Part shown: piece after piece, positions 8,002-11,478 of the stretch
Position numbering within the stretch: position 1 is the first letter of the stretch
How the letters are laid out: each line of letters opens with the position of its first letter
From: a virus
Virus record (IMG/VR): IMGVR_UViG_3300045988_143165
Coordinates: 3,410 to 67,409 of that record
Strand: one strand, 5' to 3'
DNA: 64,000 bases
Position numbers and translations under genes: made by a program
The notes under the pieces: generated by a model
Seen by the model: the letters and a program-made list of their open reading frames with translations, nothing else
Database searches by the model: none
What the model was told of the DNA's origin: nothing

Positions 8002-8418
8002 TTATACAAATTGTAAGTATATTGGTTTTGGATTGAGCATTGCATTTCCATCTCCGAGAACATATTGGTCGATTTTCGGCTTAATAACTTCTTGAATATA
8101 TGTTTCTCTTATTCGAGAATCCATAAAAATAACTTGTGAACAAATTTCAGAAATCATATTCTCTTTGGTTATTAGATTGATAATGCTACCATTGAAAAAC
8201 TCAATCTTAATTTGCTCACCTTCAGCAATAGATTTTATCTCACAGTCATAAGTCACCTTCTTATAGTATTCAATGATTTCGTCAAGCATTGTTTTAGCAG
8301 AAACCATATCCTCAATATAAAAAGTAATTATGTAGTTCGATAAGGTAATGCACCTATCGAGGAATTTATAACCTCGAATTTTCGATTGTTCAAATATTGA
8401 CATTATCTTGACTCCCAC
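8002..8418 (-). CDS. hypothetical protein
   Basis: ORF in the operon. No motif recognised. Confidence 0.35.
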   Translation of the reverse strand: MGVKIMSIFEQSKIRGYKFLDRCITLSNYIITFYIEDMVSAKTMLDEIIEYYKKVTYDCEIKSIAEGEQIKIEFFNGSIINLITKENMISEICSQVIFMDSRIRETYIQEVIKPKIDQYVLGDGNAMLNPKPIYLQFV

Positions 8419-9440
8419 GGAAATTCAGAATGACCAAAGTGACCAAACTTTGCAGTATCATTAAACTTAAATGTTCCATCTATCAAATGCAAATCTTCGA
8501 TAATCCTTTTTGGTGTGCATTCATCATAGAAACAGTCCGGTATATCAATTACTTCCTTGTTTGTCTTTGCATAAATTCCAAGAGGCTTATCCATACCTAT
8601 TGCATAAGAAATCTGAATTTCGCACCAGTTGACATCGGGTAATGTATCAAGACATTCGATTGCAAGCTGTCTTGCCTTATACGCTGCCGAACGGTCAACT
8701 TTTGTTGGGTCTTTACCAGAGAATGCACCACCTCCGACATTTGCAAAAGATTGATAATTGTCAACTACAATTTTTCTGCCGGTTAGACCTGCATCTCCAT
8801 CAAAACCACCGATTAAGAATTTACCCGTCGGATTGATGTGAAACTCTCTGATTGCAATTCCATAATTTGAACAAAGTGTCTCACAGTAGTCAGTAAGAAT
8901 TTTATCTGTCTCTGCTCGATTTGTTTCTTTGTTCTGATATGAGATAATAAAATCCTTTATATACTCCAATTTGTTATTTTCATCATAGAACCCTGTTATC
9001 TGTGCCTTGCCATCAGGAAGAAATCTGTCATCAATTTTGACAAGTCTATCATAGAATGCCGATAAATCTTGAAGGATAGCCATTGCCGTAGGAATGTAAT
9101 CCACTGTATCTCTGCACGCATACCCGAACATCATTCCTTGGTCTCCAGCACCTCCAGCATCAACGCCCTGCGCAATATCAGGTGACTGTTTACCGATGTT
9201 ATCAATAACTTCATATTTATTTGGGTCATATCCAACATCACGAAGAGCTTCTTTAACAATGTTTGTTACATTGACTAATGCTCTTGAAGTTACTTCACCT
9301 GTTACGAATATTTTTCCTTTGCCGCCGACAGTTTCAATGCCGCATCTGCTATGTTTATCCTGCTTCAAAAAAGCATCAAGAAGTGCATCACTTATTTGGT
9401 CGCAAACTTTGTCAGGGATGTCCTCTAAAAACAATTTCAT
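8403..9440 (-). CDS. metK: S-adenosylmethionine synthetase
   Basis: [12 protein letters not shown] and [19 protein letters not shown] signatures. The N-terminus [18 protein letters not shown] aligns to the E. coli MetK start, so ATG at 9440 is preferred over the track's TTG at 9467. Confidence 0.85.
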   Translation of the reverse strand: [345 protein letters not shown]

Positions 9441-9615
9441 TGCTGTAATAGAAAGACATATAATCAACTCCTTTCATTTTCAACGAAGCGCCAAGTATAT
9501 CCACCTGCGCTTTACGCTCATATTTATTATTACAAACATCGCTTATTCGTTTATAATTTGTTCCTGTTATTAGTTAAACACCTAACAGATTTTCTTCGAT
9601 AAGTTGATTATTCAT

Positions 9616-10551
9616 TTATGTATCTCCTTGTTTGACATACTTTTTATAATTACAACATACATTTTCAAAAAATCTTTCCCAATCACCATTGCTCAAATCG
9701 TATTGTGATATTGAGTGTTTAATACAAAAATCACTATTTGAAAATGCTTTAATCATATTTTGAATTGGTGGTTGTCTATCTCGGCGTATTACCTGACCTA
9801 AATTTCGGAATACAATCCACGCTTCATTTCGTAATATGATTTCGCCCCAACAATCTGAATAACAAAACTTTTCTTTGTTACTTAAATCAATGCCAAAATA
9901 CTTTTTGGCACGATATACCAAGGGTGTTCCATTGTCACTTGGGTCAGATGGTCTATGTAAGGGTGAAAAGAAATCCCTGTGTTTAATCCAAAGGTCATCA
10001 CCTTTTACAACACATTGACACTTGCACTTGTTTAGAATCCAATCCGCTGAAAAACTTTGCTTTACTCCTTTTAATTCTGCTGGTTTTGATAATTTTGGCT
10101 GACCGTAAAATCTATATGAAACCACTTCGCAAAAAAGCGGTGCTGTAAAAAATAATTCGTAAACTTCGGCAGGATTAGAATAAGTAAATGTTATAGGATA
10201 AACTAAACTATCGTTTGACATAAACTGATATTCAACAATGTCATAATACAAATCATCAGCATTGTCTTTATATAGCCTAAATCGTAACATACCATCTTGT
10301 AATTGATACTTATACCATTCTCTTGTTCTATTTTGAGGAATTTTGTGTATTACTAAAAGTTCAGATTTGCTTTTTAACTCTTGAATAGTATCAAGATAGG
10401 ACATATCTGTATATGGTTGAATATCTGTAACATTTTCAGAGCTAAAAACCTGTCTTGCTTTTTCAGCAGTTTCAGCATAAATTAAAGGTTTTGCATTAAA
10501 TTCCTCTATTGTTAAAATCCAGCGTTTCATAGTTTGTAATAATGACTCCAT
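9616..10551 (-). CDS. hypothetical protein
   Basis: 311-aa ORF. No motif recognised. Confidence 0.4.
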   Translation of the reverse strand: MESLLQTMKRWILTIEEFNAKPLIYAETAEKARQVFSSENVTDIQPYTDMSYLDTIQELKSKSELLVIHKIPQNRTREWYKYQLQDGMLRFRLYKDNADDLYYDIVEYQFMSNDSLVYPITFTYSNPAEVYELFFTAPLFCEVVSYRFYGQPKLSKPAELKGVKQSFSADWILNKCKCQCVVKGDDLWIKHRDFFSPLHRPSDPSDNGTPLVYRAKKYFGIDLSNKEKFCYSDCWGEIILRNEAWIVFRNLGQVIRRDRQPPIQNMIKAFSNSDFCIKHSISQYDLSNGDWERFFENVCCNYKKYVKQGDT

Positions 10552-10626
10552 TTATGTAATCATTAGACAACCAATTTTGTGAATGGTCGTTAATGTCATC
10601 ATCTGATATTTCATTTCAAAAACCTC

Positions 10627-10962
10627 TTACTGAAATAATTTTCTGCAATATCCCATTTGAGCTAAATATCTTTTGAAATAAATATTTATACCATTGTGTG
10701 ATTTCTCTTTGAATGTAATAATTTTATACGGGAATCTATCAAGTGATACTACTAAATACTCAAAACCATTTATTGCAATATTCACACTACCATCTGTATT
10801 AAAATAAGCCAAAATAGGATGTTTAATTGAATGTTTTATATTTAGGTTGGGGCATCTTTTGTCAATCATTTCTTTTGCGTGTTTTGTTAATATGTAATTA
10901 TTCGCAATCTCGTTAAGCTCATTATGTTTTAATAATTGTCCTCTATGTCGAATCTGAATCAT
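10627..10962 (-). CDS. hypothetical protein (start uncertain)
   Basis: ORF overlapping the 3' end of the Dam-like methyltransferase in another frame. An internal Met was chosen as start. Confidence 0.3.
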   Translation of the reverse strand: MIQIRHRGQLLKHNELNEIANNYILTKHAKEMIDKRCPNLNIKHSIKHPILAYFNTDGSVNIAINGFEYLVVSLDRFPYKIITFKEKSHNGINIYFKRYLAQMGYCRKLFQ

Positions 10963-11478
10963 ATGTAACCTTCTTTTCAACAGTACATAATGTGTCATTC
11001 TTGCTGCCGCCGTGGGCAACAACAAGAATTTCAATTATTTCAAATCCTCTTTTCTTGCCAACACCATTTGTATTCCAACCAAAAGAAAGACAAACTCCAT
11101 TCGGTTTAAGAATACGAGCAATCTCATCAAGATGTTTTGCTCTCCAAGATGCTTTTGTATGTTCTGCGGTTACTTTGATACCAACACCCTCATAGCATTC
11201 TTTTACTTGACGAAGCGAATATGGTGGGTCATATAAAACCACATCAGCAGATTCACTTTCTATCAACTTCAAAAAGTCTAAAGCATCTAAATGATATGTA
11301 GTATCAAATTTTGGATTTAAGTCATTAGTAATCGTTCCTATATGACAACCATTTGCAAATGGGTCAACAATTACTTTGTTTTTATCCCCCTGGCGGTGTA
11401 TCTCACCACAAGTTCTTTTATTGGAGGAATACTAAATGTTTTGCAGTTAGGCATAGCCCATACTCTGTTTACAATCAT
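10943..11478 (-). CDS. phage Dam-like N6-adenine DNA methyltransferase. Needs a -1 shift at a G5 tract to join the N-terminal ATG to the DPPY frame
   Basis: The frame carrying VIVDPFANG...VVLYDPPYS...ILKPNGVCLSFGW has no Met anywhere (163 codons from stop to stop). The upstream frame has RBS gagggtataaaATG with MIVNRVWAMPNC.. (W-x-x-P like the family N-terminus). The two frames fuse if the G5 at 11387-11391 (minus sense) were G6. Confidence 0.55.

What the first reader, a model, noticed from the sequence alone, without database searches (positions are those of the whole stretch)
8403..11478. SAM synthetase co-located with two DNA methyltransferases
A complete MetK ([19 protein letters not shown]) is encoded a few genes from a Dam-like N6-adenine MTase, with a beta-class N6/N4 MTase at 2234-2959 and the MTase-helicase fusion at 55287-58349. 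Phages more commonly destroy SAM (SAMase) than make it. Making SAM suggests the phage boosts its own DNA methylation, as anti-restriction, or resists host SAM depletion.
Basis: partly seen in the sequence, partly recalled or inferred. Interest (0 to 1): 0.5.

Follow-up and report, generated by a model that had tools for sequence, protein, structure and literature searches.

The report
Phage SAM synthetase gene needing a frameshift
The phage's SAM-synthetase gene is not one intact reading frame: it is broken at its catalytic His-Pro-Asp-Lys motif by one extra base. That base creates a release-factor-2-style "slip forward one base at a UGA stop" signal, and the same signal recurs in SAM-synthetase genes of many tiny bacteria, tiny archaea and gut phages. 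The two neighbouring DNA methylase genes look broken.

Summary
A MetK homologue, two amino-methyltransferase homologues and a methylase-helicase fusion are present at the stated places. None of the three small genes is an intact ORF.

**metK.** It starts at ATG 9459, reads MSFYYSNEIVFRGHP, and hits TGA (9414-9412). The remaining 336 codons, starting DKVCDQ, lie in the +1 frame. The site AGA GGA CAU CCC UGA C has the same layout as the prfB programmed +1 frameshift.

- It is not a sequencing error: the identical site occurs in at least 9 independent assemblies of this lineage.
- It occurs in three other phage lineages whose closest relatives are intact.
- It occurs in about 60 clusters (90% identity) of CPR-bacterial and DPANN-archaeal metK.
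- In those genes the site is strongly codon-biased (GGG CAU CCY UGA C), and the downstream ORFs are intact.
- Four frameshifted alleles of this lineage differ by 19 synonymous-only and 6 amino-acid-changing codons.

**Methylases.** The Dam-like and beta-class genes are frame-broken without slippery heptamers, and one relative carries a second break. They are probably decaying.

**Context.** Phage metK alongside methylases is already documented. I found no report of the metK recoding site. SAM-responsive control of it is only a hypothesis.

The parts
9415..9459 (-). metK ORF0: the true start (ATG 9459-9457, preceded by AAAGGAG) and 15 codons encoding MSFYYSNEIVFRGHP. This segment carries the catalytic His of the GHPDK motif.
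   Evidence: Three-frame translation. 117/120 homologues start ..NEIVFR[G/S]HPDK.
9411..9426 (-). Proposed +1 frameshift cassette AGA GGA CAT CCC TGA C. It consists of a purine-rich SD-like element ending 6 nt before the stop, a wobble-read His codon, the pyrimidine run CCCT, a UGA stop, and a following C. After the shift, GAC sits in the A site.
   Evidence: Sequence. Identical in L001-L004, L012, L013, L200 and L206. Same layout in 85 unique sites from other metK genes. prfB layout taken from PMC12421855.
8403..9413 (-). metK +1-frame body: 336 codons from GAC (Asp of GHPDK) to the stop. All other catalytic and binding residues of E. coli MetK align and are conserved.
   Evidence: Pfam, PDB alignment, purifying selection among frameshifted alleles.
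9468..9615 (-). Remnant of the 3' end of a homing-endonuclease gene immediately upstream of metK (..YKRISDVCNNKYERKAQVDILGASLKMKG).
   Evidence: Homologous to the 3' end of the stop-interrupted gene upstream of metK in L009/L010. That gene hits phrog_314 homing endonuclease at 9e-28 and a GIY-YIG phrog.
9616..10551 (-). 311-aa ORF of unknown function between the methylase and metK. It is conserved in relatives.
   Evidence: No Pfam or PHROG hit. Syntenic 304-311 aa genes in L001-L007.
11371..11478 (-). Dam-like (DPPY amino-) methyltransferase, 5' fragment: MIVNRVWAMPNCKTFSIPPIKELVVRYTARGIKTK, then stop.
   Evidence: Aligns to the N-terminus of intact homologues in L008 and L011.
10943..11385 (-). 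Dam-like methyltransferase, 3' part in the -1 frame (..KNKVIVDPFANG...VLYDPPYS...). The break lies in GGGGGATAAAAAC (11390-11378), which is 8 nt longer than in intact homologues.
   Evidence: The joined protein hits phrog_11619 DNA methyltransferase at 8e-47 over residues 12-172. The same break is in L001 and L002.
2234..2959 (-). Beta-class N6/N4 methyltransferase reading frame (DPPY ... FxGxG) with no in-frame canonical start upstream of DPPY.
   Evidence: PF01555 at 8e-30. Frames. Comparison with the intact 247-aa L005 gene.
2923..2973 (-). Orphaned start of the beta-class methyltransferase: TTG 2973-2971 (overlapping the upstream gene's stop), 16 codons, then TAA. The C5 run at 2953-2957 is where the frame is lost (4 nt missing compared with L005).
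55287..58349 (-). Intact N6-adenine-methylase-like domain fused to an SNF2/DEAD helicase (1020 aa).
   Evidence: phrog_24008 over the full length; PF02384, PF00176, PF00270 and PF00271.
2970..4169 (-). Divergent adenylosuccinate-synthetase-family gene directly upstream of the broken beta-class methylase.
   Evidence: PF00709 at 2e-33. phrog_1211, annotated as the PurZ-type enzyme, at 7e-55. Far below the NCBIfam PurA and PurZ cut-offs.

Best explanation
The phage metK is a recoded gene. Ribosomes start at ATG 9459 and translate 15 codons to His-Pro. With peptidyl-tRNA-Pro on CCC and the poorly terminating UGA-C in the A site, a fraction of them slip +1 (CCC to CCU). They then read GAC-AAA and go on to make a full-length 351-aa SAM synthetase with an intact GHPDK motif. 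The rest terminate after 15 residues.

The cassette (purine-rich AGAGGA ending 6 nt before the stop, wobble-read CAU, pyrimidine run CCCU, UGA, C) is laid out like the prfB cassette (AGGGGG UAU CUU UGA C). Its minimum effect is to set MetK output at a fraction of initiation.

**Shown here**
- The break is real and lineage-wide.
- The same break has arisen repeatedly in phage, CPR and DPANN metK.
- The site carries site-specific codon bias.
- The downstream frame is maintained by purifying selection.

**Inferred**
- Ribosomal +1 slippage is the mechanism that joins the frames.
- More speculatively, its efficiency may rise when SAM is scarce. Both brakes on this event are SAM-dependent methylations: m1G37 on tRNA-Pro (TrmD/Trm5) and GGQ methylation of the release factor. 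That would make the gene self-regulating.

The two adjacent methyltransferase genes are most likely inactivated. In this phage, MetK would then serve the methylase-helicase fusion or host-directed needs rather than those two enzymes.
For: 1. **Not an assembly error.** The identical sequence GGACATCCCTGACAAAG is found in the window, L001-L004 (four samples and sources), L012, L013, L200 and L206.
2. **Recurrence in phages.** L009/L010 carry CAT CCT TGA TAAG. L008 and L011 carry CAT CCC TGA CAAG. Each has an intact nearest relative: window-P0001 98%, L011-P0068 97%, L008-P0041 89%.
3. **Wider survey.** I searched for exactly one extra base between the GHP and DK codons. Among MetK-flanked hits the extra base is T in 116, G in 11, C in 7 and A in 4. 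The T class forms 85 unique sites and 60 clusters at 90% identity, 17 at 70%. In the species-representative genome collection, all 29 such hits are CPR bacteria or DPANN archaea.
4. **Downstream ORFs.** They are full length in 74/80 T-class genes against 9/20 non-T (Fisher p = 8e-6).
5. **Site-specific codon bias** in 57 unique cellular frameshifted genes, compared with the same genes overall: GGG 86% vs 13%, CAU 96% vs 59%, CCY 100% vs 46%, GAC 96% vs 44%. The flanking Glu and Lys codons are unbiased. The bias holds with one representative per 75%-identity cluster: 20/26, 25/26, 26/26, 26/26. In intact viral metK the Pro codon is CCA 40, CCT 16, CCG 11, CCC 5.
6. **Both frames are coding.** Variable positions follow third-codon positions of frame 0 up to the site and of frame +1 after it (table).
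7. **Purifying selection.** Four frameshifted alleles of the window lineage differ at 19 synonymous-only and 6 amino-acid-changing codons. The neutral expectation is 21% synonymous (p = 7e-9). Pairwise dN/dS is 0.03-0.12.
8. **Precedent.** CCC_UGA is an established natural +1 shift site: the Listeria phage tsh gene, and E. coli pheL at about 15% (PMC5009743). The prfB elements are SD-like sequence, spacing, a four-pyrimidine run and TGA-C (PMC12421855).
9. **Score.** Joining the frames raises the TIGR01034 metK score from 296.8 to 307.7 bits.
Against: - No protein, reporter or ribosome-profiling data exist, so frameshifting is inferred.
- Frameshifted alleles are a small minority and sit at the tips of the tree, next to intact relatives, in phages and in CPR/DPANN. 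The state may be short-lived rather than maintained.
- A sub-lineage (L001-L004, four samples) has also lost 28 codons, including GKQSPD..GAGDQ. This shows that metK is dispensable there.
- The two neighbouring methylase genes are broken in the same lineages, which fits general decay of a methylation module.
- The selection signal could partly be imported by recombination with intact alleles.
- The SD-like AGAGGA is also simply the codons for conserved Arg-Gly. An SD mechanism should not apply in archaea.
- The codon-bias counts are not fully phylogenetically independent.
Confidence: 0.62

Rival explanations
1. A tolerated ('leaky') mutation rather than a programmed device. Single-base duplications hit metK everywhere. 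Only those that create CCY-UGA-C after a purine-rich stretch survive for a while, because incidental +1 slippage still yields a little enzyme. The state is mildly deleterious, has no regulatory role, and is eventually reverted or followed by gene loss.
For: - Frameshifted alleles are rare and tip-level, with intact relatives at 89-98% identity.
- Intact alleles can be one insertion away from the cassette, for example L286 AGG GGG CAT CCC GAC.
- L001-L004 went on to delete essential codons.
- Incidental CCC_UGA frameshifting of 1-15% is documented in E. coli (PMC5009743).
Against: - There are dozens of independent occurrences confined to CPR, DPANN and a phage family, and none among the other bacteria sampled with clean TGA sites.
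- Strong bias also at positions not created by the insertion: GGG, CAU and the C after the stop.
- Persistence across dS of about 0.05-0.07 under purifying selection in the window lineage.
Confidence: 0.22
2. A plain pseudogene. metK, like the two methylase genes beside it, is dead in this phage lineage and nothing functional is made from it.
For: - Three methylation-related genes are broken near their 5' ends in the same genome.
- The 84-nt deletion in L001-L004.
- L009 has a second break in its beta-class methylase.
Against: - 19 synonymous-only against 6 amino-acid-changing variable codons among frameshifted alleles (p = 7e-9).
- No second disruption in 336 codons in the window, L013, L200, L206, L008, L009 or L011.
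- 74/80 intact downstream ORFs across the T class.
- The break is always at the same base.
Confidence: 0.1
3. A homing-endonuclease immunity scar. A GIY-YIG-type endonuclease gene inserted just upstream of metK targets the highly conserved GHPDK-coding DNA of endonuclease-free alleles. The inserted base destroys the target. It spreads with the endonuclease by co-conversion, and its cost is softened by ribosomal slippage.
For: - A homing-endonuclease gene (interrupted by stops) or its remnant lies directly upstream of metK in L009/L010, the window, L001-L004, L012 and L013.
- The window and L009 share that 5' module although the genes are only about 85% identical.
- Phage frameshifted alleles share an identical 30-nt patch, GAAATTGTTTTTAGAGGACATCCCTGACAA.
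- An endonuclease-metK pair is also described in a Streptococcus prophage (PMC8223999).
Against: - L008 and L011 have no endonuclease gene next to metK.
- The same site occurs in CPR/DPANN chromosomes, where no such element was seen.
- This does not explain the GGG, CAU and C-after-stop bias.
- It complements ribosomal frameshifting rather than replacing it.
Confidence: 0.06

Closest known systems
prfB (release factor 2) programmed +1 frameshift
   Same: An early in-frame UGA followed by C; a four-pyrimidine run spanning the P-site codon and the U of the stop; a purine-rich SD-like element ending 6 nt before the stop; a wobble-read codon in the E site (UAU there, CAU here); GAC in the A site after the shift. 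The site lies within the first about 25 codons (PMC12421855).
   Different: - The P-site codon is Pro CCC/CCU rather than Leu CUU.
- The gene product is not the factor that reads the stop, so any feedback would have to be indirect.
- It is present in a minority of alleles with patchy, recurrent origins, rather than in about 64% of genomes.
- It also occurs in archaea and phages.
CCC_UGA +1 frameshifting in Listeria phages A118/A500/PSA (tsh, cps) and in E. coli pheL
   Same: The same shift site (peptidyl-tRNA-Pro on CCC with UGA in the A site), in phages of Firmicutes (PMC5009743).
   Different: In those cases frameshifting makes a C-terminally extended second structural protein, or is incidental. 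Here it is required to make the only functional product of an enzyme gene, and the site is near the 5' end.
Antizyme +1 frameshift (UCC_UGA, rarely CCC_UGA)
   Same: A +1 shift at a codon followed by UGA, which serves as the sensor of a metabolite pathway linked to SAM (polyamines).
   Different: Antizyme is eukaryotic. It is stimulated by polyamines and a downstream pseudoknot. Metabolite sensing is demonstrated there and only hypothesised here.
Phage-encoded MetK as an auxiliary metabolic gene (Ca. Heliusvirales, Streptococcus Javan prophages, FP_Brigit)
   Same: A short (about 340-355 aa) MetK carried together with DNA methylases in gut and Firmicutes phages.
   Different: Those genes are intact ORFs. 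This lineage needs recoding, and its neighbouring methylases are broken.
Phage T3 SAM lyase ('SAMase')
   Same: A phage manipulating the host SAM pool in the context of restriction and BREX.
   Different: It acts in the opposite direction (destroys SAM and inhibits MetK) and has an unrelated fold.

Membership tests
MetK / methionine adenosyltransferase | Three S-AdoMet synthetase domains (N, central, C) | tested here: met
   PF00438 80 bits, PF02772 71 bits, PF02773 125 bits, all above their cut-offs.
MetK / methionine adenosyltransferase | Catalytic and binding residues: His14, Asp16, Lys17 (GHPDK), Glu42, Gln98, Asp118, Lys165, Asp238, Arg244, Lys245, Lys265, Lys269, Asp271 (E. coli numbering, from my own knowledge of the enzyme) | tested here: inconclusive
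All residues from Asp16 onward align and are conserved. His14 is present only if ORF0 is joined by a +1 shift.
MetK / methionine adenosyltransferase | NCBIfam equivalog TIGR01034 score at or above 309.4 bits | tested here: not met
This is a short phage-type subfamily (phrog_1569, 1.8e-95).
MetK / methionine adenosyltransferase | A single uninterrupted ORF | tested here: not met
   TGA at 9414-9412 after codon 15, with the body in the +1 frame.
MetK / methionine adenosyltransferase | SAM-forming activity | not testable with these tools
   Needs an enzyme assay of the joined 351-aa protein.
prfB-type programmed +1 ribosomal frameshift | In-frame UGA followed by C, preceded by a codon whose tRNA can re-pair in +1 (a pyrimidine run) | tested here: met
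   CCC UGA C in the window. CCY 100%, and C after the stop in 79/85 unique sites overall and 55/57 cellular genes.
prfB-type programmed +1 ribosomal frameshift | Purine-rich SD-like element with 3-nt spacing to the shift codon | tested here: inconclusive
   AGAGGA in phages and GAR-GGG in CPR/DPANN, at the prfB spacing. GGG is used 86% at the site against 13% gene-wide. These are also codons of conserved residues, and pairing to the anti-SD was not tested.
prfB-type programmed +1 ribosomal frameshift | Evolutionary maintenance: both frames coding, and the site conserved among homologues | tested here: met
   The periodicity shift at the site, 74/80 intact downstream ORFs, and dN/dS 0.03-0.12 among frameshifted alleles. 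However, occurrences are patchy and tip-level.
prfB-type programmed +1 ribosomal frameshift | A demonstrated trans-frame protein product and a measured efficiency | not testable with these tools
   Needs a reporter assay or mass spectrometry of the junction peptide.
Dam-like / DPPY amino-methyltransferase (phrog_11619) | Family match including motif IV DPPY | tested here: met
   The joined protein scores 8e-47 over residues 12-172, and DPPY is present. No Pfam family matched. Adenine versus cytosine specificity is not determinable.
Dam-like / DPPY amino-methyltransferase (phrog_11619) | Intact ORF | tested here: not met
   TAA at 11373-11371. The remainder is in the -1 frame, with 8 extra nt compared with L008/L011. 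There is no X_XXY_YYZ heptamer.
Beta-class N6/N4 methyltransferase (PF01555) | Domain match with DPPY (N-terminal) and FxGxG (C-terminal) | tested here: met
   PF01555 at 8e-30. DPPY lies at 2870-2881 in the open frame.
Beta-class N6/N4 methyltransferase (PF01555) | A start codon in frame with the catalytic DPPY motif | tested here: not met
   There is no ATG/GTG/TTG between the stop at 2960-2962 and DPPY. The TTG used by intact L005 is out of frame because 4 nt are missing.
PurZ (2-aminoadenine pathway) for the PurA-like gene 2970-4169 | NCBIfam PurZ model NF038379 at or above 300 bits, or PurA equivalog at or above 395-402 bits | tested here: not met
   PurZ 35 bits and PurA 90-103 bits. Only the PHROG labelled as the PurZ-type enzyme matches well (7e-55).

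The most novel reading that the evidence does not exclude
The CCY-UGA-C site in metK is a SAM sensor that works in all domains of life. When SAM is low, tRNA-Pro lacks m1G37 (made by TrmD in bacteria and Trm5 in archaea, both SAM-dependent). The release factor is also under-methylated at GGQ. Together these raise +1 slippage and lower termination, so more SAM synthetase is made. When SAM is high the gene shuts itself off. This would be a protein-free, riboswitch-free feedback loop. It would have been acquired repeatedly by minimal-genome CPR bacteria, by DPANN archaea, and by phages that bring their own metK.
Probability: 0.2. Interest if true: 0.85.

Novelty: new variant of a known kind. Interest (0 to 1): 0.7.

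Why it matters
**If the recoding is real**
- metK joins prfB as a second widespread cellular gene read through a +1 frameshift at an early UGA. It is found in bacteria, archaea and phages.
- Gene callers currently truncate these alleles or call them pseudogenes. That distorts metabolic reconstructions of CPR and DPANN organisms, where SAM supply is a key dependency.
- The site places a tRNA-Pro slip, whose fidelity depends on a SAM-derived methyl group, inside the gene that makes SAM. Whether cells sense SAM through translation fidelity becomes directly testable with a simple reporter.

**For this phage**
- The 'MetK feeds the phage methylases' picture is too simple. The nearby methylases are broken and MetK output is throttled.

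Tried and rejected
- **Sequencing or assembly error.** Rejected. The same base is present in at least 9 assemblies of this lineage and in many unrelated projects. CCC|T|GA is not a homopolymer extension. The G/C/A-insert classes, which do look like homopolymer errors in long-read MAGs, have broken downstream ORFs in 11/20 cases.\n- **Alternative genetic code or stop read-through.** Rejected. Reading TGA as a sense codon leaves the wrong frame, which soon stops. No suppressor tRNA is among the 13 phage tRNAs.\n- **Internal initiation at the ATG of '[11 protein letters not shown]'.** Unlikely. It has no ribosome-binding site, and its product lacks beta-strand 1 and the catalytic His. 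The true ATG has AAAGGAG, and its 15 codons are conserved at the protein level.\n- **Transcriptional slippage.** Unlikely. There is no long homopolymer at the site.\n- **Programmed -1 frameshifting for the two methylase genes.** No X_XXY_YYZ heptamer is present at either break. L009 carries a second frameshift.\n- **A phage tRNA-Pro frameshift suppressor.** ARAGORN called 24961-25054 'tRNA-Pro(AGG)'. Infernal shows a 29-nt insert in place of the anticodon loop, and no AGGG or expanded-anticodon reading of CCCU fits.\n- **Deep clade-wide conservation of the frameshift in CPR/DPANN.** Not supported. The best protein hits around two frameshifted genes are mostly intact full-length MetK at 79-94% identity.\n- **Literature searches for a reported metK frameshift**. 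Nothing was found. The library excludes most subscription journals, so absence is not proof.\n- **Pfam on the L009 endonuclease pseudogene.** No hit. PHROGs did match.

Full report
**What was claimed and what is there**

Homology is confirmed for all four.
- The MetK ORF carries the three S-AdoMet synthetase domains. It aligns to E. coli MetK at about 1e-67.
- The 2234-2824 ORF hits PF01555.
- The Dam-like pieces, when joined, hit phrog_11619 'DNA methyltransferase' at 8e-47.
- The 1020-aa ORF combines N6_Mtase with SNF2/DEAD helicase domains.

The window is a large, AT-rich phage genome segment transcribed almost entirely from the minus strand. It carries:
- 13 tRNA genes;
- a NAD-dependent ligase;
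- NAD-salvage genes and an integrase.

**metK is not an intact ORF**

Only two share '[11 protein letters not shown]', and one is N-terminally truncated.

The DNA explains this.
- A good ribosome-binding site (AAAGGAG) precedes ATG 9459.
- That frame encodes MSFYYSNEIVFRGHP and then TGA (9414-9412).
- The remaining 336 codons, starting GAC AAA GTT TGC (DKVC...), are in the +1 frame.

The gene therefore has one extra base exactly between the Pro and Asp codons of the catalytic GHPDK motif. Joining the frames raises the TIGR01034 score from 296.8 to 307.7 bits against a cut-off of 309.4. It also gives a full-length match to phrog_1569.

**It is not an error**

The protein with the shifted N-terminus (P0003) is encoded on four contigs from four different samples and sources. 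All have a 5' sequence identical to the window. IMG/VR and JGI contigs L012, L013, L200 and L206 carry it too.

Three further phage lineages have the same break:
- L009/L010: CAT CCT TGA TAAG, 85% amino-acid identity to the window;
- L008: CAT CCC TGA CAAG, 70% identity;
- L011: CAT CCC TGA CAAG.

Each has an intact nearest relative: window-P0001 98%, L011-P0068 97%, L008-P0041 89%. The break has therefore arisen or spread several times within the phage MetK family.

**A much wider phenomenon**

I scanned the public collections for exactly one extra base of any kind between GHP and DK.
- The metagenome and species-representative genome collections gave 150 more loci.

Among hits flanked by MetK sequence on both sides, the extra base is T in 116, G in 11, C in 7 and A in 4. 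The T class comprises 85 unique site contexts. These fall into 60 clusters at 90% identity, 17 at 70% and two at 50%: a long cellular type and the short phage type.

In the genome collection, all 29 T-type MetK hits are from two groups:
- CPR bacteria: Saccharibacteria, Nealsonbacteria, Berkelbacteria;
- DPANN archaea: Aenigmatarchaeota, Nanoarchaeota, Iainarchaeum and others.

The G, C and A classes mostly extend a homopolymer. They come largely from long-read MAGs of other phyla, and 11 of 20 have further breaks. By contrast, 74 of 80 T-class genes have full-length downstream ORFs (Fisher p = 8e-6).

**Signature of a frameshift cassette**

Across the unique T-class sites, variation falls on third positions of frame 0 upstream of the site and on third positions of frame +1 downstream. 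Both segments are therefore constrained as protein.

At the site itself, codon choice is extreme. The table compares the 57 unique cellular frameshifted genes at the site with the rest of the same genes.

| Codon at site | At site | Gene-wide |
|---|---|---|
| Gly GGG | 86% | 13% |
| His CAU | 96% | 59% |
| Pro CCY (never CCA or CCG) | 100% | 46% |
| Asp GAC | 96% | 44% |

The adjacent Glu and Lys codons show no bias. With one gene per 75%-identity cluster the counts are 20/26, 25/26, 26/26 and 26/26. Intact viral metK genes mostly use CCA for this proline. Phage frameshifted alleles all use AGA GGA CAU CC[C/U] UGA.

The consensus is purine-rich/GGG - CAU - CCY - UGA - C. This has the layout described for prfB: an SD-like element six nucleotides before the stop, a four-pyrimidine slippery run, UGA, a following C, and GAC in the A site after the shift (PMC12421855). 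CCC_UGA is itself a documented natural +1 site in Listeria phages and in E. coli pheL (PMC5009743). The restriction to CCY fits slippage of a GGG-anticodon tRNA-Pro (CCC to CCU, or CCU to CUU with G·U pairs). That last point is my inference.

**Is the window's copy alive?**

The four full-length frameshifted alleles of this lineage (window, L013, L200, L206) differ at 25 codons. Of these, 19 are synonymous-only and 6 change the amino acid, against a neutral expectation of 21% synonymous (p = 7e-9). Pairwise dN/dS is 0.03-0.12, and 0.08 against the frameshifted L009. All catalytic residues downstream of the break are conserved. This argues against a dead gene.

Against that:
- the L001-L004 sub-lineage has lost 28 codons, including GKQSPD..GAGDQ;
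- in both phages and CPR/DPANN, frameshifted alleles sit next to intact relatives rather than forming old clades.

The state is recurrent and can persist, but deep conservation is not shown.

**The methylases**

Beta-class gene:
- Compared with the intact 247-aa gene in L005, the window and L001 lack 4 nt at a C-run, and L009/L010 lack 1 nt. The TTG start is thereby separated from the DPPY-containing frame.
- L009 has a second frameshift further in.

Dam-like gene:
- It has 8 extra nucleotides relative to the intact homologues in L008 and L011. ORF1 terminates at 11371. L001 and L002 share this break.

Neither break has a canonical -1 slippery heptamer. These two genes are best read as inactivated. 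Only the methylase-helicase fusion is intact.

There is a possible correlation, seen in three lineages only. The lineages with the recoded metK and a broken beta-class methylase carry the PurA-like gene: the window, L001 and L009/L010. L005, which has both genes intact, lacks it.

**How it most likely works**

Translation initiates at 9459. At CCC-UGA-C, termination competes with +1 slippage of peptidyl-tRNA-Pro. Ribosomes that slip make full-length MetK, so output is throttled.

A plausible but untested extension is that the two processes opposing this event depend on SAM. One is m1G37 on tRNA-Pro, whose role in suppressing +1 slips at Pro codons is well established (abstracts listed). The other is methylation of the release factor. 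If so, low SAM would raise MetK synthesis. This would work in bacteria, archaea and phages alike. It would suit organisms and phages for which I assume, but did not check, that SAM riboswitch control of metK is lacking.

**Rivals**
- A tolerated leaky mutation without regulatory function.
- A true pseudogene.
- An immunity scar against the homing endonuclease whose gene or remnant lies immediately upstream of metK in several of these phages. The last would still need slippage to keep the enzyme.

**Comparison with what is known, and novelty**

Phage-borne metK with methylases is already described: 58.9% of Ca. Heliusvirales genomes (PMC11283538), annotated Javan phages and FP_Brigit.

The recoding site in metK is a prfB-like cassette in a new gene. 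It uses a different slippery codon and has a cross-domain, patchy distribution. I found no report of it in the searchable literature, which excludes most subscription journals. I class it as a new variant of a known kind.

**Verdict**

Confidence is about 0.6 that it is genuinely decoded by +1 frameshifting, and about 0.2 for the SAM-sensor reading.

Noticed in passing
window 2970-4169 (-): A divergent adenylosuccinate-synthetase-family gene. Its best PHROG is the one annotated as the PurZ-type (2-aminoadenine pathway) enzyme (7e-55). It scores far below the NCBIfam cut-offs for both PurA (103 vs 402 bits) and PurZ (35 vs 300). It is present in the lineages with recoded metK and a broken beta-class methylase (window, L001, L009, L010) and absent from L005, where both are intact. 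If the phage replaces adenine, adenine methylases might be redundant.
   Followed up: partly
window 24961-25054 (-): A tRNA-like gene (Rfam tRNA, 51.5 bits) with normal acceptor, D and T arms but a 29-nt insert where the 7-nt anticodon loop should be. No splice position gives a canonical U33/R37 loop. ARAGORN's 'tRNA-Pro(AGG)' call is doubtful. It might be a decoy or a regulatory tRNA mimic.
   Followed up: partly
window 23543-24394 (-): A Thg1-family (tRNA-His guanylyltransferase-like) gene next to the first tRNA cluster (24829-25139).
   Followed up: no
window 16131-16718, 35760-37265, 38362-39261 (-): A probable NAD/PRPP salvage set: a cytidylyltransferase-like (NMNAT-type) protein, a nicotinamide phosphoribosyltransferase and a PRPP-synthetase-like protein. 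A NAD-dependent DNA ligase lies at 12320-14269.
   Followed up: no
window 9468-9615 (-); L009 about 890-1560: A remnant of a homing-endonuclease gene directly upstream of metK. In L009/L010 the full-length copy (phrog_314, 9e-28) is interrupted by three in-frame stops (TAA, TGA, TGA) but by no indel over about 200 codons.
   Followed up: partly
L001-L004 (metK at L001:10001-10954): A sub-lineage found in four samples has an in-frame 84-nt deletion. It removes [28 protein letters not shown], the substrate loop and the Asp118 region, in addition to the frameshift. The deposited NCBI protein is annotated as a 'methionine adenosyltransferase domain-containing protein' from a Ruminococcus sp. MAG.
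   Followed up: partly
loci among L134-L236 (T class): Five frameshifted cellular metK genes have downstream ORFs of 786-828 aa. This suggests MetK fused to another domain.
   Followed up: no
L011, L136, L224: Some frameshifted genes carry GGGCFSGKC[F/I/V]TKVDR in place of the near-universal [15 protein letters not shown] motif.
   Followed up: no
window 44039-45022 (-): A phage-integrase-family gene in the middle of the window, suggesting a temperate lifestyle.
   Followed up: no
window 15070-15432 and 15320-15928 (-): Two ORFs on the same strand overlap by about 110 nt. This could be another frame break, or a true overlap.
   Followed up: no
PHROG phrog_1569: The short phage MetK family is listed in PHROGs v4 as 'unknown function', although it matches MetK over its full length (1.8e-95). 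Phage annotation pipelines relying on PHROGs will miss it.
   Followed up: yes
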